From the human T2T-CHM13v2.0 reference genome, Homo sapiens: 64,000 nucleotides of DNA. Made by a program: the position numbers and the translations under genes. Below the pieces are notes generated by a model. That model had not been told where the DNA came from, made no database searches, and saw only the letters and a program-made list of their open reading frames with translations. Location of the stretch: the NCBI RefSeq assembly GCF_009914755.1, contig NC_060925.1. One strand, written 5' to 3'. Shown here piece after piece: positions 43,105 to 57,843 of this stretch (the first letter of the stretch is position 1; the number at the start of each line of letters is the position of its first letter).

Positions 43105-44979
43105 GTGAGTAGCTGTTGGTGCTGCGCCTCCTGGGGGTGGGGAGTGGCCAGGGACAGGAAGGGCTTGGGAGACCTTCATGTCTGGCCGAGGTCCTGCTCA
43201 CCCGCTAAGCACGGGCTCTGGAGAGGGCTTGCCCGTGTCCTCTTCACAACTCCCTGGGCTGCTTGGCACTGGGGACCCTCCCCGCCAGGCCTGGCCCAAC
43301 ACCTGCAGGGAATTATGAGTGGATGGCAGGAGAGTTCCATCATTTAATGCAAACTTGATTCAGACACAGAATGGTTTTGTGAAAGGGTTTAAAGTTACAA
43401 AATCAAGTTTACCAAAGACAACTCAGTTACCCTTTCTAAAATAACCTAGCAAAATCTTAAAACAGACACCACCCATTTTAAGCAGCTGTGCATGTCTCCC
43501 ATACCACCATCCACGTTCCCTGTATTTTCCCACGCCCATCTACATGTGAGGCCACAGTTCCTCAATAATTGACCTCACCTCTCAGGCACTTTGCCTTCAC
43601 TCTGTACCCCATGCCCCTCATTGTGTCCTATACCCCCCAAAACCATTCATAGCTGGGATCGTCAGTGTCAGAGGTAAGCTGAGCCAGGTAAGAGTGGCAG
43701 AGGCAGAAGGGGAAACTCAGGGTTCAGGGGCCCTAGAATTATGTAGAATGATCTATAGTCAACTCAGCCTGAGTTCAGGATCCTGTGAATATTCAAGACC
43801 CAGGGCACACACAAATGGCAGGACCAGGGTCAGTGACCAGTTAGGCCACCAGGCCAGAGAAGATGCAGGTAGATGCAGAGCCTGAGGGAGATGCAGTGGA
43901 GCGTGGTCAGATGGGCTGCCCGGAAGTGGCTCCTCTGGCAGCAGAGATCACAGGAGGAAGTGGGTCAGCTGCACTGCCAGGGTCTCCCAGAATCAGAGCA
44001 AACCAGGCAGATGCTGGCTACTGGGGCAGCCAGAGCAGGGGAACCCCAGGCTGGACCAGAGGCTGAGCAGTGAGCTGCCCCAGGGAGGAATGAGCTGGGA
44101 AGCAGCAGGGAAGCTGCTCCTTCCTCCTGGGAGGGGTGTGCTCAGGGCAGGGGCTGCCCTGTCAGAGGAATATTGTGAGGTAAGCCCAGCAGGCAGGCCC
44201 TTGCATCTCCTTCATGGGATCTCATCCTCTGGGCATGTCCAGGGGCGACTTTCATTTGTCTGGAGAGGTGAAGAGCATGACTGATAGGAAGGAAGTGCTG
44301 CCAGCCCTCAGGTGACTCCTAAAAATTGGTCCCGACAATTCCACAGAGGAAATTTGCTGCTTCCCCAGGGGCCTGTGCTCTGCAGGCTCCTGACCCTGTT
44401 CCCAGCTGGAAGCTGGGAGGTGCTTCTGCCCTCAGAAGGTTGAAGGCTGCCCAATTTGTGCAAGATGAGCCCCTCTTACTGGCTCATCTTCTCTCAAACT
44501 GAGCATCTGGCCAGGCACTGGGGACCTGAGGAAGGAACCTCTGCATTAAAGCGGAACATGACTGTGTCACAGGGTAGGTCTCAATAATGTATGTTGATGC
44601 CTCATCTGATCTCTAGAGCTTTCTGGTACACTTGTCTTTGATCTCCTTAATACCCAGGAACGAAGAGGTTGGAACCTTAGAGATAAAGAACTCCCTTCAT
44701 CATGCCTAGATGAGGCATTGAGGCCCCAGAAGTGCAGATGGGGATCCAGTCACTTCCTCACTTTCCATTGCCCCAGGCTGTTGACTTGGCCAGAAACTCC
44801 TCTGCTGTGGCTGGTGTGGGGCACTAACTGGTCTGCAGGATAAGCAAGTGCTAGAAGCTGCAGCCCCTACCTTTGCCATGCAGCCTTCACTGGGGGTCAG
44901 CGTCAGCCCCTTGGTTGTCTGCACACTGTTTCCAGGGATGCTGTCTTTGCATCAAACTTTTGAGAATGCTTTTGGGGGG

Positions 44980-45338
44980 TGTATTAGTTCATTTTCACAC
45001 TGCTGATAAAGACATATCCAAGACTGGGAAGAAAAAGAGGCTTAATGCACTTACAGTTCTACATGGCTGGGGATGCCTCACAATCATGGCGAAAGGCAAG
45101 GAGGAGCAAGTCACTTCTTTTGTGGATGGCAGCAGGCAAAGAGAGTTTGTGCCGGGAAACTCCCATTTTTAAAACCATCAGATCTCGTGAGACTCATTCA
45201 CTATCACAAGAACACTGCAGGAAACACCCATCCCCATAATTCAATCATCTCCCACCAGGTTCCTCCCACAACACATAGGAATTGTGGGAGTTACAATTCA
45301 AGATGAGATTTGGGTGGGGACACAGCCAAACCATATCA
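44980..45338 (-). mobile_element. THE1 (MaLR) solo LTR in STUM intron 2
   Basis: TGtattagt...gctgataaagacatatccaagactggg...ggggacacagccaaaccatatCA, with a 5-bp TSD GGGGG (44975-44979 and 45339-45343). Confidence 0.9.
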
Positions 45339-46276
45339 GGGGGATAGACTTGAGGGCTGAATACAAAAACCAGTCACACCTCATTCTTGCCCACTGCCTG
45401 ACTGCCAGACTCTTTCACCCAACTCAGCAAGGGAAGCCTTTGCATTTTTTTCCCACAACTAATCCCACCCCCAAAGGGTGAACAGTTGCTACTCATGAGA
45501 TGGTGCTATAGGTGGGATTACTCCCAGCAACCATGGAACTTGTGTGTCTGAGAGTGACTCCTTTGAAGGGAATTATCACAATGGACTTTTCTATCCTAGA
45601 AGACAGTTGGATAAGGGACTCTTCTTTCTGGTGTCAGTCCAGCCCCTTGCTATAAAAACAGAGGAAACTTTTCAGTTGTAACAGTACACTTTGGCTTTTC
45701 GCATGGCATTGCCTGGGGTGTCATCAGCAAACACACTATCATGAAAAACTCCTAAGAGGGGAGTCAGAGAAATCTAGATGAAAGTGGGAGTTAACATCAG
45801 GAAGTTGCAAGCATGTTGCTTGATTTATATGAATAACAACAAATAACAAACAACAACACCCTGTCTTGGTCATGGGTCAATAAATACTTGGTAGCTCTAT
45901 GGTGGGCTCTTTCTACTGCCATGCCCATGGCAGACATTGCTAATCAATCATGACACTTTCTGGTGACCAGTCTCACATGTTCTCAGCACAGGGCTTCAGG
46001 CAGTCACTACTAATTGATCCAAGAGGTCTGCAAGATAAAATCTGTTTGCCACCCTCTGGCCTGGGTCTTCCCCAAAGTATTTTTATATATGTGGCTCCTC
46101 TCCATAGAAATGGCTAAGCACATAGCTCAGACAGAGCCAGTGTGGGGCCAGGATGGGGCACATCAGCATCTTTAGATTGCTGTAGTCAAAGCTCTAGCTG
46201 TCCAGGAGCTGCCACTCCTCATGTCCATCTGGAATTTATCTGGAGGAAGGCATGAGCTGAGGATGAAAAAAAAAAG

Positions 46277-46440
46277 GCTAGGTGCTGTGGCTCATGCCTG
46301 TATCTCAGCATGTTGGGAGACTGAGGCAGGAGGATCACTTGAGACCAGGAGTTTGAGGCTGCAGTGAGACATGATCACACCACTATACTCTAGCTGGGCA
46401 ACAGAGTGAGATTCTGTGTCAAAAGAAGACAAGAATAAAG
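46277..46440 (+). mobile_element. Alu monomer (FRAM/FAM-like)
   Basis: A single ~150-nt arm with an A-rich tail. Confidence 0.75.
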
Positions 46441-47511: not shown

Positions 47512-48128
47512 GGTATCTTCTTAAGAAAACAAACACAATACCCTTTCACACCTAAATAAAGCAGTAACAATTCCTTACTATCCACAGAGCTCACTTTTTC
47601 CCAAAGGACTCATGATCAACAATGTTTTAAAGGTTTAGCCTTCAGGCGCCCTTTCCTGCCGTAACCGTCCAGCAGGTTGGACGCACACAGGGATGGCTGC
47701 TCCCCTCTGTATGCCATCTTCCTCCTTTCTTCCTCCTTCTATCCACCCATACCAGATGCCCAACCTTCGGGGAAGCCTGCCTGGCACCTGCTCCCAAGGC
47801 TCTGCACTGGGAAAGCACACCAGACCAGTCTGTAAGCGGCTTCCAGATGTGGGTTCAGGAGCATGTCGATAGCCTTTTAGCTCCCACCCCAAATGCCCGC
47901 CCGTCATACATTCCCAGTAGACCCAGTACTCCACATTTCCTGATTCATTCTTTTGTTTCCCATTAGAAAGTCAAAGCCCTTGGGAAAAGTTGTGCTCTGA
48001 TGGTAGCAGTCATTTACACCTTAGTATAAACAATGCCTCCTGTGTGCATTCTGGGCTAGGGGCACCTCCTGGAGAAATCCTGAAGTAAGCAGGTGTCTAA
48101 CCATCTCTCCTTTGCTTCTTCCTCACAG

Positions 48129-48163
48129 GCTACAAGGAGCAGGGCATCCCACAGCAGCTGTGA
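48129..48163 (+). CDS. STUM: STUM terminal exon, coding part (G)YKEQGIPQQL*
   Basis: Branch-point-like CTAAC at 48097-48101, a pyrimidine tract, then cctcacAG|GC TAC AAG GAG CAG GGC ATC CCA CAG CAG CTG TGA. It is in frame with the upstream exons. Confidence 0.93.
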
Positions 48164-48962
48164 GCCCACGGGAGCCGCTGGGGAGATCCAGGGGGGCCCT
48201 GTGAGGGCTGCACCAGGCAGCTTTGGGCACAAGGACCTTTACATGTTCTTTTCTGCCATTTTCTGGACTGGGGGTGGAAAGGGGGTATTTTTAAAAATAT
48301 TATTTATTTTGAAAACGCATCTGCTTTTCTCAGCAGGTTGTGAGGGCTGCCAGCCCCTCCTGCTCTGGAAAGCACTGTGGGCGCAGGCACCAGAGCATCA
48401 GAGAGTGGGGTGGAGATGAGAACGCCCACAGAGAGGCTGGGATGCTCCGGCAGGCTCCAACTGGCCTTGCTGTACCCACTGCCCACCGCAAAGGCACGCC
48501 ACGTCTGCTGGGCCGGGCCACACCGGGCCCTGTCTGGGTGAGCAGGGGCTCACCAAGGGGACAGGACTGTGGTAGACCCGTCCTGTGGGACCCCACCTGC
48601 CTCAAAATCTGGTGCCCCGAGTGTTTACTGTGTGGTCTCCTGGGGGCAGCACCAGGGTGTGGGTGAGGATGGCCAGGCTCCACCCTAGCGTGGAAAGGCC
48701 CACTGTGCCCACAGCTGGCCTGAGGCCTCGGGGAGAAGACCAGTCCCACAGGCGTCTCCTGGGCCTGCCTCCCTGACCGCACCCCCCGCCTCCTCGCAGC
48801 TGAAATCTGAGGGCTGGGTGTGTCGTGACCTGTGTTTTCCTGGGAAGGAGAGGAGTAGCTCCTTCCCTGGGGTGAAACTGCCAGATGTTTATACACAAAG
48901 TTATTAGACTGAAGCAGGAGTGGGCAGACTAGCAGGCTTTCACCCAATACTTAACAGCATTT

Positions 48963-49292
48963 CTGGCCCACATTCCTTTTTCTGAAGTCATTGGGGCCAG
49001 ATGTGTCTCCGAATTGAGAAATTTTAGATTTGAGAAAGACAATGCGATCCATTTATCGTACACTTTCTAACTTCCCGGCAGAGTGTGGAACATCTCGCCT
49101 ACCATCAGGCACGTGAATATTTCTGCAGAGAAACATGTGACTAGTCCCATTAACTGGGAGCTATACAAACTGTAAATAGCCTCACCTCAGTTCAGTCTAA
49201 TTTTGCCACTAAGTAACTTAGGGAAAAACTTACCATTTGAGAGCTTTTAGGGTTTCAGAATTGCAAGAACAATTGTATGGGGTTGTGGACCT
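48963..49292. mobile_element. Possible Tigger-type (TcMar) MITE remnant within the 3' UTR
   Basis: Degenerate terminal inverted repeats ggcccacattcc / ggggttgtggacc around an AT-rich body. Confidence 0.4.
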
Positions 49293-50219
49293 TGATCTGA
49301 AAATCCTGCTTGCAAACAGATGTGTTAGAGGGTGAAATTGTCGGCATTACACAAGGACTCCTTCAGTTGCCAAAAGACCATGGGCCTCTTTAAGGAGCCC
49401 CTCTGTAAGTGATTGGGACAGGGCTAGATCCCTAATGGGGGCTAGGGGTGGGGAGAATCTAGCAGAAGTTGTCCAGGATACTGTGGATCAAGTATCAATC
49501 TGAAATTAAGAGAAATTAGATACTAAGAGGATGGACATTTACATGTCTGTTTCCTTTCCTTTCATTTTCATTCTAACATAGGAAATGCTAACAGATGGGG
49601 CTGGCCCAAAGTCAAGCTTCTGACTCCACTTGACACAGTGCCATTGGGCATGTCCCTCTCTGAAGGGCTTGTTTGTCTATCAGAGACTGTCAGAACTCCA
49701 TGAGGGCAGGAGAAGGGATTTTGCAGGATGAAAGTGCTTGGGAAGTAGTGGCCACCGTTCTGGGGGTTTCAGCCCACCTACCCCATCCACCGGGCTTTCT
49801 AATCACAGTCCTGCCTGAGAAGCGGGCCCTGCTGCCCACCCCTTATCATGGATCCCTTAGCTACTGTCCGTCTTCCATTGCTGCCTGGGGCTGGGCTGCC
49901 GTTTTTGAACACCTGGCAGTGTCTTTGTCGCGTCCTGTCCTCTCTTCTTACAGACCCCAACCCAGGCCTTTGCCTTCTTCTCTCCTGTTTGGAAGCCTCT
50001 GTATCTTCAAGGTGTGGGAACAGATTTGGTTTTCTCTAAAAAGCTAGAACCTTCTGCTGTGTGCAGCAGGCATCCTCCAGGCTGGTGCTGGCTGCTCTCG
50101 AGGAAGCTGCGTCAGAGTGGAGCTGCCCCTCTACTCAGATAAAATAGCTTCAGCTGCAGGAAGCCGCCCCCTCCCATGCCCACCAGCCCACAGCCCTTCA
50201 CCCCACACAGCCCCCAGAG

Positions 50220-51828
50220 TTTGCCCGACACCCCCTGAGTGATGACAGGTCTCAGGAGGGGGCCGCCCCCACAAATGGGAGGCGGAAGCTTATTTTCCCC
50301 GCTTGGGCTGGGGGCGGCTGCTGAGGGGGTGAAGAAGAGATAGCAATTTATGTCGCATGTTTAGTGACACAATCCAGATGCAGGTGGGACTTTCTTGAGT
50401 GGCAGGTGTCACCCTGGGTCCCGTGTGGGATGGTTTAATACAGGGGTTTGTGTGTTTGTGTGTGTGGAGGGCCACTGCGCCCCCAGATCCTCCTCTCCCC
50501 CGAGGGCTGCGTCTCTAAACCTGGGAAAACATCAGCCTCAGGAGGAGGCCCCTTTCCGGGTAACTGATGTGTGGGAGAAGCCAAGAGGCCCCTGCCTGTC
50601 TCCTGAATGAGGCTGTGAGGGTTGCCATGTGGGCGGGACCGGTTCAAAATAGCGCCCCCGCCCCTCTAAATTAGACCGTGGTCTCAGCATGATCATCTTC
50701 AGTAGATAAGGGACAGTGGCTGATTTACTCCAAATAGTTCCAGCTGGCCACTCAGACCAGGGCCAGAGTTAACTTCTCAAACACCAGCCAGCTGAAAATT
50801 AGGGTTCTCGTGCAGGCAAGTGCATGGTTGACACACAGCCCTTTGGTGACAAAGCTGGGCTTTGCCTGCATAGTGCAGACAAGGCTGTTGGTTCAGAGGC
50901 TGCAGGGCACATTCCAGGTTGGGGCCTTTTGTCGGTCGGAATTCAATAGGACATTCCCTGGCTGTGGGTGTTTAGGGCAGGAATTACAGGCTTGCAGAGA
51001 AAGTCAGAGGCAATGAGATGCTCCCAGTACCAAACTGTGACACTGGGATCAGGGTGGTCATTCCCTTGGGTCAGAGTGGGACCCTAGAGCCAGAGTGAGC
51101 TGTGGGTGGCCTGGGTGTGTCCTGTGGACGGCGGAGACTGTTGATTTGGATGTTGAGCTCTGAGTCAGTTTCAGAACCAAGGATCTCAGGCTGAGAAGGC
51201 CAGGTCCCCATGGGAGCGGCAGGAGTCTGATGGCTCTGCTGCCAGAGCCTACCCCAGCCTGCCACGCCGCTGACCTTCCCATGGTAAGGAAGGGGCAGGC
51301 AGCATGGTTCCCACCCTCAGCTGCCCCAGACCCACACATCCAGCCCCAAGAGCAGCCTCACCCAGGCACAGTGCAGGGCATTTTAGCTCCTGGGAGGGGA
51401 GATGCCTTTGTGAGTTTCAGATGTCAGAGGAGAAGCTCCGAGAGAGTAAGTCATGTGCCCCCAAACACTCAGCTCCTAAGTGGCAGGACAGGCAAGTGGC
51501 CAGGTTGGGCCGCCCCCACAGCCTGTGCCGTCCACACACTCACTACAGCACTCCCAGAAGAAGGAGCAGAATCGCATGCAGCCCAGAGCAGGTCCTGTGG
51601 AGGGGTCCTCACCCCTCAGGAGTAATAGGGTGATTATGTCACATGTTTAGTGATACAATCCCACCTGTGTCTGGATTGTGTCACTAAACATGCAACATAA
51701 ATTACCATCTCTTCTCCATCCCCTCAGCAGCCGCCCCCACCCCAAGCTGGGAAAATAAGCTTCTCCCTCCCATATGTGGGGGCGGCCCCCTCCTGAGACC
51801 TGTCATCACTTAGGGGGAGTTGGGCAAA
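50220..51828. repeat. Inverted repeat, arms 50220-50389 and 51659-51828 (170 bp each, ~91% identity, no gaps)
   Basis: Manual alignment of the left arm to the reverse complement of the right arm gives 15 substitutions in 170 nt. Confidence 0.95.
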
Positions 51829-54800
51829 ACCTCCTAGGAAGGTCCTGGACGCCTCCACCCTGCCCCACAAGGCTCCGTACTCCCACCTGCCTGGGCAGCC
51901 CTCACACCCATGCTCCCTCCTTTAGGCAGGCCCAGAAAGGTGCCCCTTCCTGAGGGTGTTGGGGGATGGCGGCAGAGAGACAGCTGGTATTAGGAGCTTC
52001 CCCATCCTAATGTGCAGGACCAAGTTGCCCGCTCTGCCAGCCAGGGGCTCCAGCCATGCTGGCACAGGCATCTCAGAGGTGTGAGATGAACTCCGCCTCA
52101 TGCAGGATGCCCAGGGCTCGGAAGCAGTAAGGAGGATGCTACAGAAAGGAACTGCAGAAAGAAAAAAAGCCACATGGTTAACTTTTCCCCTGGAGGGCAA
52201 AGGGGTCCGGCTCTCAAAAAGAAAAGCCAGGCACAGATCCCAACACCAAGTGTAAGGCAGCACAAAGTGGGTCTGAAACCCCAGGACCGGGTCAAAGGCC
52301 TTCCGAAGGCCCGAGGTTCTTGAGGAGGGGAAGCTGATAGGGCCCTGGTCTTTCTGCACCAGCGTGGCTCTTTAAAATACAAAACACCCACAAAGCCAAA
52401 AACCCTGAAACATGTTCTTTAGCTAACCCCTTCCCTGCCCAGATGCCTGCAATTCTGAGAATTCACTTCAGTTTTGCCAGATCCAACCCCTAGGCTTGAG
52501 GGTGGAGAGCCAGGCCTCCTCAGGGTCCCTTCTAGGCTCCCAGGCCCACCTTAGGCTTTAATTGCATTGGCTGTTTCTTATGGTGTTAGTGAATTTTGCA
52601 AAGAAAGCCCTGAGCATTGCATAAATGCTTGGGGGCGTGTCATTTAAATGGAAGTTCTCCAATAGTGGCTGAAGGCAGAGTTTACTGTTATCCCTCCCTC
52701 TTGCTGGCTTTGCTGGAGGGCTTTTATCAGAGAGATTGGAGGTGGGAGAGCACTTTTAAAGCACACCCCACCCCCTGCACCCGAGCGGCACCTAAGCTTC
52801 CCAGAGACCATGACCTTGTATGTGGCTGGAGGCCTCAGGCTTAGGGAGCAGCCTGAAGCCTTTGCTGTCAACCCTCCCAGGAAAGAAGCCGGGCCTCAGG
52901 CTGAGGAAAAACAGAGTTTCCTCTCCAGAGGGCTCAATGAGCAGCCAGGTAGTGGCCTCGGGCAGTCCTCACCAGGGGGACACCTCCCTGCTTTGCATTA
53001 ACTCATCAGCAAGCTCATCGAGAGCTAACGTGGGCCCAGCAGTCCTGTGCTTGGAAATGATGCCGTCACCTCCACACTCCTGCTGTTCCAGCCTCTGCAG
53101 GTGAAGCTGCAAGGTGAGCAGAGGCAGGCGTGGGGACACACTCTTCAAGGACTGCACTGCCCCTTCTCCCTCCTGAGAGCTCTGTGCACTGGGTTTGGGG
53201 ATGAGGCGCCAGCCTGGTCAGGGGAGGTGACTGTGGTCCTTCTGACCAGCTTGGATCTTTAAAATAATCACAAAAAAGCTCAGCCTGAGCAGGTGGGTGC
53301 AAGGCTCAGGGGCCTGTGTTTTTCATCAATCAGTTTTCTTCCTGCAAGATTCTTAGAGCTGGATGTTCACGGGATCATGGGGCATGGAGGTGGTCACGCT
53401 CAGACAGTCATGCACCACCCTCAATCCCAGGCCCTGCAGAGATAGGAAGAATCCCAACCAGAGGGATTCTTCCCCAAACGTTCCCTTGTGGCCCAAGAGT
53501 GAGTTCCGGCCTGAGTGCTGTTATGACTGCCGGCGTCTCTCCGACTGCCTCTCGCCTCAGTTTAACCATCTATAGGTTAGGAACAAAGAAGGGCTTAGGC
53601 AGCCATCGTTTCCCCATTTCTGTCAGAGCCAAGGGCTTGGAGGCCCAGCCCCATCCGGGCAAGGGCTGTCCGCTCCTGCCCAGGCCTCACCTCCTCGCTG
53701 CAGCTGGCAAGATTCTTTCTAGCAGAACAGAAACACTGGCCCCCAATTCCACTCTCCCCTCCTGATGCTACCGCAGAGGGCAGAAAGGTGCCCTGTAGCG
53801 TCCACCATGTGTGTGTCCTGAGTTTCCAGTGCAAGTCATCTGGATTTGCATTTAGCTAGGGAAACTCGGCCCTCAAACCCTCTCCCTCTCTGCCTGAATT
53901 TGCCAAAATGCCAACCATCCGGGCAGGTGTGGATGCCACAGTCCATCCCCATTGCATTTCACCCCCACATGGACAGAGGCACACACTCGCACACATTCCC
54001 AGCACCTTTGACTGCTGGGGGATGCAGGCCAGGGTCTGCCTGGAGCCTCAGGGTTGGGACTTATCTCCAAAGGAGCCCACACCCCCTCTTCCAGGATGGG
54101 CACTGGCTGGCAGCACTTTTTTCCCTCATCACATCCCTGACCCCTGCCCAGCCCACATGCACATGCTGTTTCCTGTCTCCAGGGCCCTAGCCTGTGGATC
54201 TCTTCCTCCCATGCACTCCTAGGGTGAATGGGCTCAGCACCAAACCTGGCTGTGCCCATTCCCCACAACCCCAGCTTGGCCTCCTGTGGGAAGGAGAAGG
54301 CAGACCTGCCCAGAGGAGAGGGGCAGTGTTCCCACCCACCTGCTCCAGCACAGGAACCAGGGAGGAAAGAAGGGAGAGGGAGGTTCCATTCACCGTTTTC
54401 TGGGTTAGCGCTTGATTGGATGTTTCAAGCAAGGGACAAGGTGATGGTGGCTGTAATAGGCTCCTCGTGGGCACCGTCACCCCAGAAGGCCTGGGCACCC
54501 ATGAGAACCTGTGGCCAGCCCTTTTCATTGGCTGAGTTCCCTGCTGTTGTGCGTGGTGCCATTTTTTTTTTAAACAACATATATAAAAACAAAACAACTG
54601 GTTCTGTGTGTATCAACTTAATTTGCATATGAATGAGTGTTGTGTTGTGATTTGCAGTGTTTTGACACCGTGATTGGCTTTGTTTGGGTCTCTCTTCTTT
54701 CTGTGAAATTAACTGCTGTGCGTTTTCACTGTTCTTAGAGAAGACCCTGAGCTCCTGGGGTTTTCTTGTCTCACTTCTACCCTGACCTGCTGGGAGCCCA

Positions 54801-55030
54801 CCCCACCCCAGTCCAGCCATGAGGGTATTTCCAGCCTATTCCAATGACTGAAACCCTTCTTGGAAGAAAACGTCTAATGTCGGGGACGTAGGGACGCTTC
54901 CAGACTTGCCCTGGCCGGAACCCTGCAGCCTGGGGCCCCAGCCCGCCTGCAGCTCAGCTTTCCCCAACACCCTCAGGACCCAGCCCCAGCCCCGGCAGAC
55001 CTTCCCTGGGAGCTGCTTAGGTGGTCTCCA

Positions 55031-55049
55031 CAGCGCCCTCTAGGGGCCA
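55031..55049 (-). promoter_or_regulatory. Candidate CTCF site
   Basis: Minus strand TGGCCCCTAGAGGGCGCTG versus consensus TGGCCASYAGRKGGCRSYR. Confidence 0.5.
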
Positions 55050-55315
55050 AGCAGGGTTCCAGATTCTCCAGCCTTCTGCCAGCTTTAAAACCCTTCACTC
55101 AAGCAGCATTACTGTACATGCAATGAAAAATACTATATATGACAGTCAAAACCTGTGTACATATTTCCATGTACATATTTATACATACACACACCTTCCT
55201 ATTATAAATATATAAAGCATGACATCTCTTTGGCATTCCAAGTTTGTGTTTTTTTAAATCCTTGGAAATACGGCTTTGGAAACCTTTTTCTTCCTTTCCC
55301 TCTTTTCTATGTTGT

Positions 55316-55321
55316 AATAAA
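55316..55321 (+). promoter_or_regulatory. STUM: Polyadenylation signal AATAAA of STUM
   Basis: gttgtAATAAAcattc, with an overlapping upstream UGUA (CFIm-type) and a U-rich upstream tract. U/GU-rich sequence follows (gtagtttctc, ctgtgtcc). Confidence 0.75.
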
Positions 55322-57843
55322 CATTCATGTGACCTTTCTGGTAGTTTCTCAAATCCCTGTGTCCTCCCGTGTTCCTAATCGGACAGATCTCTGGGACAAC
55401 GCGCCTTCCTCCCCACCTCTGCAGCCTTTGCTATTGGTTGGCTTTCCGTTATGAAGGCTGTCCTCCCCCAAGGCGGGTCTTGAGTTCTTTCAGACCTTTT
55501 TCCCGAATTCCCCTTCTTCCGAAAGGCTTGTGCAAGTTACTCTTCAAACAGCCTCATCTTTGATAATCTGATCCCTTTGCAACCAGGAATTTGCGTGCTA
55601 AATCAAGCATCAGGCCCCAGATTGAGTTTACCAAGAATAAGTGTACAGATGCAGCTCATTTCCTGCTGTTAATTGTTAGACTGGTTGATGAGGGAAATGT
55701 GGGCAACATACATATTTGACAAAGACTTCTGAATAAATGAGAGTCTGGGTAAGAGTGGTTAGGAGAATGTATAACTACCTGTTCAGTTACAACGAAGGAC
55801 AGGTTGCACCTGGGAGAGAATTGCATCCACAACCCAGCCAATGCCTTTACTCATAATGGGATGAAGACCTACAGAACTGACCAAATTTGTGGATAAGGAG
55901 AAATAAGTATATTAGACGAACAAATCAGAATCCCAAAATCTCCTGACGGGCAGAGGCAATCTAACTCGATGAAATCTAATAGCATTCAATGAAAGAGTTG
56001 TGCTTGACATGAAGAAAGCTCCGTGCTTTCCTTCATCCCTGGGGAGTTACTCAACAGGCAGCTCAGTGTTCTTCACGGCATGCTGGGGCTGACTACACAG
56101 GCCATCTGGTTTCAGATGCACGAGGAGCTGCAGGCTGGGGTCCGGAATGAAACCGCATCTGCAGCGTTGCATTCAGTACTGGGTGCCATGGGGGAGCAAG
56201 TGCTCTGACAACGAGTGTCCAGGTGTCATTCCTGTCACTCACACCCAAGGGAAGGGCCCCGCCCTGCCTCCTGCCATTTCCTCAGGCCAGCCCAGCACCC
56301 TTAGGGTCCACTTACCCCAGGAGAGGCTGCAGTCTTAATGGCCTCGATGCTGCTGTTGTCCAAAAGAGTGAATCATCTTCAAAGCACAACCTCTGGTGAG
56401 ACTTGAAGCTCTACTGCGATGGCCCCTCCAAGGCCCCAGAAATGGCATCTGTGCCTGAGGATGATTTCAGTTGCTGCTAAGACCAGGACCTAAAGCCCAA
56501 GGCAGTACAATGACCTAAGGCACTCTCAGAGTCCCCCAGACACTCTAGGGAGCATTTTGTGATCACTTGCATTGTCCAAACACTCGATGTGCTCAGATTA
56601 AACTGGAATGCCCCGGCTGGAGGATTCTTCTGCAGTCACTCAGTTTCAGAGGGGCTCATCAGAAGGCACAATGGGAGATAAAGTTAGCTCCCCTTCCAGC
56701 ACTGCCAAGTGAAGGGAAGATACCATTTGAATGTACTAACTCACATTCCTTCTCTTCTCCCAGCACCAAGCCTCTTAACCTCAGGAAGGGTCACGTGGGT
56801 TGAGCCAGCCACTGCCTCTCTGCTGGGGGGTGACAACTTTGACAGAGTTCTCCTCAAACCCAGAAGGAAAGGGCTGTGACAAACATGTAGGCATCTGCTC
56901 CCCGCAACTCCCTACACCCCAGACCCTAGGCCCTGGGAGAGGCTCATGCTTGCCAGTGGCCAGTCACAGGAAGGGACACATGAGGATGTGCAGGGGACGA
57001 GGGGCTCGAGGAGATGGGAAGGCAGTGCTTGGGTTTGAGGACGGGGTTGGCGATGCATTCCTCAGAGGAGGAGCACAGCCCAAACCTAGTGCAGTGAGAG
57101 TCCCAGGTGGGGGACCCTGGGAGGCACATCAGTGCAGGCTGCATGTTGGGCCACCGAAACCAGAGGATGGGTCTTCATTCCCAAGAGGACCAAGATGGAC
57201 ATTTCTGGGCTCCTAATACCAAGTCAGCCTCTGAGTAAAGCCTTAGGGAAGGGTCATGGGACCCAAGATTCAGTTTACATAAAACACGTCAGGAACAACT
57301 TGGGGTGATAAAGTTGCAGGACTTTTCCTTAGTTCAGCCAAGAAAATTCAGGCTCACAGACAATTTGAATGGTGAGTGAGACAGGGTTTTATTGGGTGAA
57401 AAGGAAGAAAAGGGGGAAACAGGGAGTCTCGCTGGGCCAGAGACCCTGCTAGAGCGCTTCCTGCCCACAGCTTGAGTCCCAGGTTCCACATAGGAAAGGG
57501 GGGGCGAGGCTCCTCCCTGCTGCAAACGTCATGAACTTCCCAAGGCTCCACCTCACTGTGCAGGCCGGTTGGAGTTTCTGCAGTGACCCCCTCCCACCTG
57601 GCTGTCCCATTCCCGCCTCGAAAGAAGTCCATCTAACTGCCCTTAGATTAAGGATAAGGATGAAGACTGATCTTAACTGCTTCCTGCTGACAGGGGGCAC
57701 TGTTTTTGGGAAATGGCAGTCAGAGGTCCCTCAGATGCCTGTCTAAGGGTCCCCAGCAGAAGAGGCCATCATCAGAAGCTCCGGTTGCATGACTGTTCAG
57801 AGTTTGATGGCCTGAAGGCAAGAACAGACAAACGGGGTCATTA

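What the first reader, a model, noticed from the sequence alone, without database searches (positions are those of the whole stretch)
50220..51828. Non-Alu 170-bp inverted repeat in the STUM 3' UTR predicts a long intramolecular dsRNA
Seen: 50220-50389 is the reverse complement of 51659-51828, with no gaps and 15 substitutions (~91%). The arms are 1269 nt apart. In the + strand RNA, 6 of the 15 differences become G:U wobbles and 4 become A:C mismatches. The arms resemble no SINE, LINE or LTR I recognise, so this looks like a local inverted duplication of unique sequence. Known: long 3' UTR duplexes (usually inverted Alus) are ADAR substrates, with A:C mismatches favoured. They also bind Staufen and can cause nuclear retention or yield endo-siRNAs. 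Inference: this mRNA may carry a dedicated ~170-bp dsRNA regulatory module that loops out 1.27 kb of UTR.
Basis: partly seen in the sequence, partly recalled or inferred. Interest (0 to 1): 0.8.

Follow-up and report, generated by a model that had tools for sequence, protein, structure and literature searches.

The report
Single-copy inverted duplication in STUM 3' UTR
The long 3' untranslated region of the human STUM gene carries a 170-base stretch and, 1.27 kb further on, its reverse-complement copy; the copy is not a transposon and should fold into a long RNA double helix, but nothing yet shows that this helix has a purpose.

Summary
50220-50389 is the gapless reverse complement of 51659-51828, with 155 of 170 bases matching and a 1269-nt spacer. 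In the + strand RNA the 15 differences give 6 G:U, 4 A:C and 5 other mismatches.

The arms are not an interspersed repeat. Searches of the whole 3.1-Gb assembly with an arm, with the right region and with the whole 2.25-kb locus found only the locus itself. Two masked control repeats gave 5953 and 3592 candidates (against 13, 15). There is no target-site duplication, transposase-sized ORF or Rfam match.

Folding predicts a very stable long-range duplex of -327 kcal/mol. 161 of 170 pairs form in register, also in a 4-kb context. The only AATAAA/ATTAAA in the 3' UTR lies at its annotated end.

A 28-nt extra copy next to the right arm suggests a replication template-switch origin.

The mismatch spectrum looks neutral. 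I found no printed report of editing or binding at this locus. My verdict is a real, rare, single-copy predicted dsRNA that is probably an ADAR substrate. A dedicated regulatory module is not shown. It is a new member of a known kind.

The parts
50220..50389 (+). Left arm of the inverted repeat (170 nt). It keeps 6 CpGs.
50390..51658 (+). Spacer of 1269 nt that the predicted duplex would loop out. It is single-copy sequence and overlaps the RefSeq 'enhancer' feature 50371-51050 (hub table).
51659..51828 (+). Right arm, the reverse complement of the left arm (155 of 170 identical). It keeps 2 CpGs.
51634..51661 (+). 28-nt direct copy (26 of 28) of left-arm bases 50348-50375. It overlaps the inner end of the right arm by 3 nt (TCC). 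I read it as the snap-back part of the duplication.
51634..51700 (+). Local hairpin with a 28-bp stem (3 mismatches) and an 11-nt loop. It folds at -34.7 kcal/mol (folded as 51630-51704). It is a kinetic competitor for the inner end of the long duplex and is negligible at equilibrium.
48129..55353 (+). STUM terminal exon. The coding part ends at 48163 and the 3' UTR is 7190 nt. It contains both arms.
   Evidence: hub annotation
55316..55321 (+). The only AATAAA/ATTAAA hexamer in the 3' UTR, 32 nt before the annotated transcript end.

Best explanation
This is a local inverted duplication of unique, non-transposon sequence inside the STUM terminal exon. A piece of about 195 nt is present a second time in reverse orientation, 1.27 kb from the first copy. 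It comprises the 170-nt arm plus a 25-nt fold-back of its inner end. The most likely origin (inferred) is a replication template switch with snap-back priming on a 3-nt microhomology (TCC...GGA), some tens of millions of years ago. Since then the two copies appear to have drifted apart roughly neutrally. Because both copies lie in one exon, the mRNA is predicted to close a 1.27-kb loop with a 170-bp imperfect A-form helix. 161 positions are pairable, and the longest uninterrupted runs are 43 and 35 bp. Such a helix is long enough to bind dsRNA-binding-domain proteins. The most likely consequence (inferred, not shown) is promiscuous A-to-I editing by ADAR in tissues that express STUM, as happens to inverted Alu pairs. 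The helix is then an incidental by-product, not a selected, dedicated module.
For: The repeat is real and significant. It is single-copy. Whole-assembly searches with the left arm (2 candidates, both local), with 51600-51860 at E<=10 (2 candidates, local only) and with 49900-52150 (1 candidate, itself) found nothing elsewhere. Masked control repeats gave 5953 candidates (88-90% identity) and 3592 candidates (78-84% identity), so the search does see old dispersed families. There is no target-site duplication: the longest word shared by the 30-nt flanks is 4 nt. No stop-to-stop ORF in 50100-51950 exceeds 153 aa. Rfam gives nothing below E 0.25 and nothing at gathering score. The extra 28-nt copy abuts the right arm and overlaps it by the same 3 nt (TCC/GGA) that flank the 11-nt 'loop' in the left copy. 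This is the pattern expected from snap-back. Folding: the duplex is -327.2 kcal/mol, against -89 +/- 7.5 for 100 shuffles and -94 +/- 11 for 37 other 170-nt pieces of the same UTR. 161 of 170 pairs are in register in the MFE of 50200-51850 and of 49000-53000. In the ensemble, 156 of 170 pairs have P>0.9. Neutral-looking decay: there are 10 transitions and 5 transversions. The transitions give 6 G:U and 4 A:C. 5 differences are in CpG context, and a TG/CA pair at 50379-50380 is typical of two-sided CpG decay. K2P distance is 0.095. Co-residence of the arms in the mRNA rests on the hub annotation, the single canonical poly(A) signal at 55316, and only GATAAA, TTTAAA and AATACA variants before or between the arms.
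Against: No RNA-level data could be consulted, so formation of the helix in cells, editing and protein binding are all inferred. No other vertebrate genome was available. The age, the direction of the duplication (which arm is the parent) and the neutrality of the divergence therefore rest on 15 differences and CpG logic only. All 5 CpG-context differences keep the CpG in the left arm (6 CpGs against 2). This asymmetry could mean constraint or hypomethylation of the left arm instead of plain neutrality. A TE family so old or so rare that the first-look search misses it cannot be strictly excluded without Dfam. Co-transcriptional local folds may delay or prevent the long-range pairing, whatever the equilibrium says. 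These folds include the 28-bp hairpin at 51634-51700 and GC-rich internal inverted motifs in each arm.
Confidence: 0.6

Rival explanations
1. One reading: the helix is a selected, dedicated regulatory module of the STUM mRNA. It would be maintained to recruit ADAR or Staufen, to retain the mRNA in the nucleus, to control localisation or translation in neurons, or to yield small RNAs.
For: It is the only inverted repeat of 30 nt or more in the 7.2-kb UTR apart from a 34-nt, 71% match. It is the best-paired of the 23 inverted pairs of 60 nt or more in the window, at 91% against 70-87%. The helix is very stable. Four A:C mismatches exist, one with the A in a UAG context (50342) and one in UAC (51704). 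That these contexts are favoured by ADAR is recalled knowledge. The left arm keeps 6 CpGs against 2 in the right, which could reflect constraint. Andrews and Bass report that conserved dsRNAs are enriched in neuronal genes (PMC11838218, section 12 read).
Against: There is no sign of selection for pairing. Transitions split 6 pair-preserving to 4 pair-breaking, and 5 transversions break pairs. 9% divergence is what an unconstrained duplicate of primate age would show. In the same paper conserved dsRNAs are short and weak, about -42 kcal/mol on average, unlike this one. No paper or searched supplement mentions STUM or C1orf95 with editing or dsRNA.
Confidence: 0.12
2. The arms are the terminal inverted repeats of a DNA transposon or MITE, or two copies of an unrecognised low-copy repeat family.
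For: Long terminal inverted repeats around a spacer of 1-2 kb are the anatomy of some DNA transposons (recalled). Dfam/RepeatMasker could not be run here.
Against: No further copy of the arm, the right region or the whole 2.25-kb locus was found in the assembly. The same search finds thousands of candidates for repeats at 78-90% identity. There is no target-site duplication and no ORF above 153 aa. A family whose inverted ends are still 91% alike would be young enough for its other copies to be found. The 28-nt extra copy at the inner edge is not a transposon feature.
Confidence: 0.04
3. The repeat is real, but the long helix rarely or never forms in cells and is biologically inert. Possible reasons are that local structures and RNA-binding proteins capture each arm first, that helicases unwind it, or that most STUM transcripts end upstream of the right arm.
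For: The arms are 1269 nt apart, so the left arm is free to fold locally before the right arm is made. Each arm holds an internal inverted GC-rich motif (GCCGCCCCCAC in both orientations). The right arm has a neighbouring 28-bp hairpin partner of -34.7 kcal/mol. Weak poly(A) variants exist at 50138 and 50437. A 2026 preprint reports that DDX3X acts on 3' UTR inverted repeats, more so on those with long spacers (10.64898/2026.06.07.730679, passages read).
Against: At equilibrium the local hairpin has negligible probability and the long duplex dominates. Inverted Alus separated by more than 1 kb are edited in cells, according to the passages read. There is no canonical poly(A) signal before 55316.
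Confidence: 0.2

Closest known systems
Inverted Alu pairs (IRAlus) in human 3' UTRs, e.g. the inverted AluY pair in ZNF426 named by Andrews and Bass (PMC11838218, section 10 read)
   Same: Two inverted copies in one 3' UTR, separated by up to a few kb, are predicted to form a long imperfect intramolecular dsRNA. This is the class known to be edited by ADAR and bound by dsRNA-binding proteins.
   Different: The arms here are single-copy sequence, not a retroelement. The helix is 170 bp rather than about 300 bp. Reads would map uniquely. The pair arose in one local duplication and not by two independent insertions.
Non-repetitive predicted dsRNAs of the dsRNAscan catalogue (Andrews and Bass 2025, PMC11838218; sections 7, 9, 10, 12 and 20 read)
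   Same: It meets their definition. With their einverted scoring (+3/-4, G:U as match, threshold 75, 10-kb window) this pair scores 447, and it overlaps no dispersed repeat. They report about 2 such dsRNAs per Mb, with a median of 144 bp when edited and 75 bp when unedited.
   Different: It is at the long, well-paired end of that class and lies in an exon, where they say dsRNAs are rarely predicted. STUM is not named in their main text or in the one supplement held. Their database could not be consulted, so its presence there is inferred.
The conserved 180-bp dsRNA of SON (PMC11838218, section 12 read)
   Same: A non-repeat helix of similar length with a long loop, associated with a 3' UTR isoform and edited in brain, according to the paper.
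   Different: The SON helix is conserved across vertebrates with covariation. The STUM helix shows 9% arm divergence with a neutral-looking spectrum, and its conservation is untested.
Long, highly paired MDA5-type immunogenic dsRNAs (over 300 bp and over 96% paired, PMC11838218 section 10; the inverted ERV pair in the MRPL19 3' UTR, 10.1101/2022.08.29.505707, passages read)
   Same: A cytoplasm-bound 3' UTR inverted repeat with high complementarity and a spacer of more than 1 kb.
   Different: It is too short (170 bp) and is 94.7% paired (161 of 170), so it fails both thresholds.
Fold-back or templated inverted duplications produced by replication template switching (FoSTeS/MMBIR-type events; recalled knowledge, no call)
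   Same: An inverted copy close to its source, sharp boundaries, no target-site duplication, and a short snap-back segment joined at a 3-nt microhomology.
   Different: The direction and the steps are inferred from one genome only. No outgroup or breakpoint data were available.

Membership tests
Transposable-element-derived inverted repeat (IRAlu, MITE, TIR transposon) | Other copies dispersed in the genome | tested here: not met
   Searches found only the two local copies in 3.1 Gb. Control searches gave 5953 and 3592 candidates.
Transposable-element-derived inverted repeat (IRAlu, MITE, TIR transposon) | Target-site duplication flanking the outer ends | tested here: not met
   the longest word shared between the 30-nt flanks is 4 nt, and it is not adjacent to the ends.
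Transposable-element-derived inverted repeat (IRAlu, MITE, TIR transposon) | Match to a curated TE consensus (Dfam/Repbase), or a transposase ORF between the arms | tested here: inconclusive
   No stop-to-stop ORF above 153 aa in 50100-51950. No TE library was available, so the consensus match was not tested.
Long intramolecular 3' UTR dsRNA / ADAR editing-enriched region | A stable intramolecular helix of tens to hundreds of bp | tested here: met
   -327 kcal/mol, 161 of 170 pairs, uninterrupted runs up to 43 bp.
Long intramolecular 3' UTR dsRNA / ADAR editing-enriched region | Both arms in the same mature transcript | tested here: inconclusive
   The hub annotation places both arms in exon 48129-55353. 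The only AATAAA/ATTAAA is at 55316, and only weak variants lie elsewhere. No 3'-end sequencing data were seen.
Long intramolecular 3' UTR dsRNA / ADAR editing-enriched region | Clustered A-to-G changes in RNA, or binding by ADAR or Staufen | not testable with these tools
   No RNA-seq, REDIportal or CLIP data were available. Paper searches and three supplements gave nothing for STUM or C1orf95.
dsRNAscan non-repetitive dsRNA | einverted score of 75 or more with G:U counted as a match, within a 10-kb window, and no repeat overlap | tested here: met
   The score is 447 by their scheme and the loop is 1269 nt. The sequence is single-copy. RepeatMasker itself was not run.
MDA5-type immunogenic dsRNA (over 300 bp, over 96% paired; PMC11838218) | The length and pairing thresholds | tested here: not met
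   170 bp and 161 of 170 paired, i.e. 94.7%.
Known structured RNA family (miRNA precursor and the like, Rfam 15) | A covariance-model match at gathering score | tested here: not met
   the best hit in the region is mir-1265 at 22 bits against a gathering score of 79, E 0.96.

The most novel reading that the evidence does not exclude
A primate-era template-switch mutation gave a neuronal mechanosensation-related mRNA a single-copy 170-bp hairpin. The hairpin has since been co-opted. It would be kept as a uniquely addressable dsRNA platform for ADAR, Staufen or PKR binding, nuclear retention or dendritic localisation, or it would be processed into endogenous small RNAs. The better CpG retention of the left arm and the local cluster of GCCGCCCCCAC motifs would then be traces of constraint. 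This would be a non-Alu, gene-specific dsRNA switch in a human 3' UTR.
Probability: 0.1. Interest if true: 0.7.

Novelty: new member of a known kind. Interest (0 to 1): 0.35.

Why it matters
Nearly all long dsRNAs in human mRNAs come from Alu pairs, which are hard to map and hard to study one at a time. A single-copy helix of 170 bp and about 95% pairing in a 3' UTR would give uniquely mappable reads. It would be a clean natural test case for how ADAR, Staufen, PKR or helicases treat a long-range 3' UTR duplex. Its junctions also preserve what looks like the signature of a template-switch and snap-back mutation. If it is only an incidental structure, as I think most likely, it is one more entry in an already catalogued class.

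Tried and rejected
- **Transposon origin.** Rejected on genome-wide copy number (with controls 13 and 15), no target-site duplication and no sizeable ORF.
- **Known RNA family.** Rfam at E<=1 over 48000-56000 gave only two chance-level hits: mir-1265 at E 0.96 and DAOA-AS1_2 at E 0.25.
- **Extension of the repeat beyond the stated ends.** None was found outward or inward. A relaxed self-BLAST of 49800-52300 added only marginal hits.
- **A third, older partial copy at 51467-51520.** Its local alignment score was reached by 9 of 300 dinucleotide shuffles for the right arm and by 30 of 300 for the left arm. It is not established, so I did not use it as an outgroup.
- **Dating by other species.** No eukaryotic relatives are held, so this was not possible.
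- **Literature.** Five searches pairing STUM or C1orf95 with RNA editing, ADAR + dsRNA, editing or A-to-I gave no relevant paper. Searches returned 0 papers. Searches returned 5, 1 and 4 papers, all unrelated.
- **Supplements.** Those held for PMC11838218 (1 file), PMC13508285 (1 file) and PMC6373152 (7 files) have no STUM or C1orf95 entry. The large tables of dsRNAscan and of the bioRxiv preprints were not available and may list this locus.
- **Using the masked repeat at 44976-45148 as a molecular clock.** I could not name its family from a tool result, so I dropped this.

Full report
**1. The observation**

- The repeat finder reports arms 50220-50389 and 51659-51828: 170 nt, 91% complementary, 1269 nt apart.
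- A base-by-base comparison gives 15 differences in 170 positions and no gaps.
- The similarity ends abruptly. The 60 bases outward and the 60 bases inward show only scattered matches.
- BLAST gives E 2e-65 within the window and 3e-61 against the whole assembly.

The window has 23 inverted pairs of at least 60 nt within 10 kb of each other.
- This pair has the highest complementarity, 91% against 70-87% for the others.
- It is the only pair with neither arm in a stretch that the hub table lists as masked.
- Within the 7.2-kb terminal exon the only other inverted pair of 30 nt or more is a 34-nt, 71% match.

**2.

A 28-nt direct copy of left-arm bases 50348-50375 lies at 51634-51661, with 26 of 28 bases identical (E 3e-6). 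It sits right next to the inner end of the right arm and overlaps it by 3 nt.
- The right locus reads: 28-nt copy, 11-nt loop, then the reverse complement of the whole left arm.
- Its first 67 nt therefore form a local hairpin with a 28-bp stem, at -34.7 kcal/mol.
- In the left locus the same 28 nt are followed by the same 11-nt 'loop' and then GGA. GGA is complementary to the TCC that ends the 28-mer.

**3. Not a transposable element**

The assembly that holds the window (3.1 Gb, 24 contigs) could be searched.

| Query | Result |
|---|---|
| Left arm | 2 candidates, both local |
| 51600-51860 at E<=10 | 2 candidates, only local places |
| Whole 2251-nt locus 49900-52150 at E<=10 | 1 candidate, itself |
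| Control: masked repeat 44976-45148 | 5953 candidates; the 39 scored matches outside the window 88-90% identical |
| Control: masked repeat 46257-46435 | 3592 candidates; the 39 scored matches outside the window 78-84% identical |

- The controls are of similar length to the arm, so the method does see both young and old dispersed families.
- The tool warns that counts are lower bounds and that very common words are skipped. Neither caveat applies to a query that returns nothing beyond itself.
- The flanks share no target-site duplication; their longest common word is 4 nt.
- No stop-to-stop ORF in 50100-51950 exceeds 153 aa.
- Rfam gives no match near any gathering score.
- An element whose ends are still 91% alike would belong to a family young enough for its other copies to be found.

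I therefore take both the arms and the spacer to be unique sequence. No TE consensus library was available, so a Dfam scan remains to be done.

**4. Origin (inferred)**

The simplest single-event account runs as follows.
- A nascent strand copied the left-arm segment, the 11 nt after it and GGA.
- Its 3' GGA folded back onto the TCC 11 nt upstream in the same strand.
- The strand was extended for 25 nt, and the product of about 195 nt was joined in at 51634-51828.

This is a template switch with snap-back at a 3-nt microhomology. It explains the sharp ends, the lack of a target-site duplication, the inverted orientation and the extra 28-nt copy.

The three copies of the 28-mer differ from one another by 1 to 3 bases (sequences). 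That is consistent with one age for all three.

The reverse direction cannot be excluded from one genome. In that case the right locus, with a pre-existing hairpin, is the parent, and the left arm is the copy that ends 3 nt past the loop.

**5. Age and mode of divergence**

- The 15 differences are 10 transitions and 5 transversions. K2P distance is 0.095.
- Five differences lie in a CpG context. The adjacent pair 50379/50380 (TG in one copy, CA in the other) is my reading of a CpG that decayed on both sides.
- With commonly quoted primate substitution rates (recalled, not from a call), about 4.7% per arm corresponds to some tens of millions of years. I cannot be more precise without other species.
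- The transitions split 6 pair-preserving (G:U) to 4 pair-breaking (A:C). Neutral decay on either strand predicts about 1:1, so nothing indicates selection to keep the helix.
- One asymmetry is unexplained. In all five CpG-context differences the left arm has the CpG (6 CpGs left, 2 right).

**6. Would the RNA fold?**

- The two arms alone give -327.2 kcal/mol on the + strand and -330.2 on the - strand.
- The control values are -89 +/- 7.5 for 100 shuffles of the right arm and -94 +/- 11 for 37 other 170-nt pieces of the same UTR.
- In the minimum-energy fold of 50200-51850, 161 of 170 left-arm bases pair in register with the right arm. The same 161 pair in a 4-kb context, 49000-53000.
- In the Boltzmann ensemble of 50150-51900, 156 of 170 in-register pairs have P>0.9. 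The local 28-bp hairpin has negligible probability.
- The nine non-pairable positions cut the helix into runs of 10, 43, 8, 16, 7, 23, 9, 1, 9 and 35 bp.
- These are equilibrium predictions. The 1269-nt delay between the arms, the neighbouring hairpin and a GC-rich internal inverted motif in each arm may favour local folds kinetically.

**7. Are both arms in the mRNA?**

The hub's RefSeq table puts both arms in exon 48129-55353 of NM_001003665.4.
- The 7190-nt 3' UTR holds a single AATAAA/ATTAAA, at 55316.
- Before the left arm there are only TTTAAA (48290) and GATAAA (50138).
- Between the arms there is only AATACA (50437).

The sequence gives no reason to expect a strong proximal site. I saw no 3'-end data.

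**8. What it most likely does**

Shown: a real, single-copy inverted duplication in an annotated 3' UTR with a very stable predicted long-range helix.

Inferred from what is known of inverted Alus and other long 3' UTR duplexes (recalled knowledge of dsRBD proteins): a helix with 43-bp and 35-bp perfect runs is long enough for ADAR, Staufen and PKR dsRNA-binding domains. I expect promiscuous A-to-I editing where STUM and ADARs are co-expressed.
- The two arms hold 75 adenosines on the + strand.
- The four at A:C mismatches are 50332 (5' G), 50342 (UAG), 51704 (UAC) and 51694 (CAA).

The helix fails the thresholds of over 300 bp and over 96% pairing used for MDA5-type ligands (PMC11838218, section 10).

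I put about 0.6 on 'incidental structural by-product that is probably edited'. I put about 0.2 on 'rarely forms, inert'. I put about 0.12 on 'selected module' and about 0.04 on 'TE after all'.

**9. Comparison with what is in print**

Andrews and Bass (PMC11838218; outline and sections 7, 9, 10, 12 and 20 read) scanned the human genome with a modified einverted.
- They predicted 5.1 million dsRNAs. Non-repetitive ones are sparse, at about 2 per Mb.
- Median length of the non-repetitive ones is 144 bp when edited and 75 bp when unedited.
- dsRNAs are rarely predicted in exons.
- By their scoring this pair reaches 447 against a threshold of 75, so it should be in their catalogue. That is an inference.
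- STUM is not named in their main text or in the single supplement held. I could not see their tables or database.

Two preprints on immunogenic dsRNAs (10.1101/2022.08.29.505707 and 10.64898/2026.06.07.730679; passages only) describe 3' UTR inverted repeats as about 90% Alu. In the first, the non-repetitive cases are antisense transcript pairs. Neither names STUM.

Five searches pairing STUM or C1orf95 with RNA editing, ADAR + dsRNA, editing or A-to-I found nothing relevant. The searches cover main texts only. Editing-site tables in supplements that I could not see may include this locus.

**10. Verdict**

The non-TE claim and the folding claim are supported. The functional claim is untested, and the only indirect test available, the mismatch spectrum, gives it no support.
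- This is a new member of a known and already catalogued kind: a non-repetitive intramolecular dsRNA in a 3' UTR.
- It has a neat mutational signature, and because it is single-copy it has practical value as a test case.
- Interest: 0.35.

Noticed in passing
window 50163-51786: With up to one mismatch, the 11-mer GCCGCCCCCAC has 6 matches in the 64-kb window, and all 6 lie in this 1.6-kb stretch. Dinucleotide shuffles of the whole window give an expected 0.88, and 0 of 100 shuffles reach 6. Four of the matches are the two per arm, one in each orientation. One lies 47 nt upstream of the left arm (50163) and one lies in the spacer (51509). This may be a GC-box-like protein site or a relic of older local duplications.
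   Followed up: partly
window 51467-51520: A possible third, degenerate partial copy of arm bases 50228-50273, in direct orientation to the left arm. Its local alignment score is reached by 9 of 300 shuffles for the right-arm version and by 30 of 300 for the left-arm version. It is too weak to use as an outgroup.
   Followed up: partly
window 50220-50389 against 51659-51828: CpG asymmetry. The left arm keeps 6 CpGs and the right arm keeps 2. In all 5 CpG-context differences the CpG is in the left arm. The left arm abuts the RefSeq 'enhancer' feature 50371-51050, so hypomethylation or constraint of the left copy is possible.
   Followed up: no
window 17025-47541 (STUM intron): The other 22 inverted pairs of 60 nt or more within 10 kb each have at least one arm in a stretch listed as masked. 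Examples are 38167-38429/39064-39326 (263 nt, 80%) and 17097-17324/17786-18013 (228 nt, 79%). These are ordinary intronic inverted repeats that would be spliced out.
   Followed up: no
window 52728-52939: A weak Rfam match to DAOA-AS1_2 (20.4 bits against a gathering score of 43, E 0.25). It is most likely chance.
   Followed up: no
window 48164-55353: The 7190-nt 3' UTR is 54% G+C. It has a single canonical poly(A) hexamer, at 55316.
   Followed up: yes
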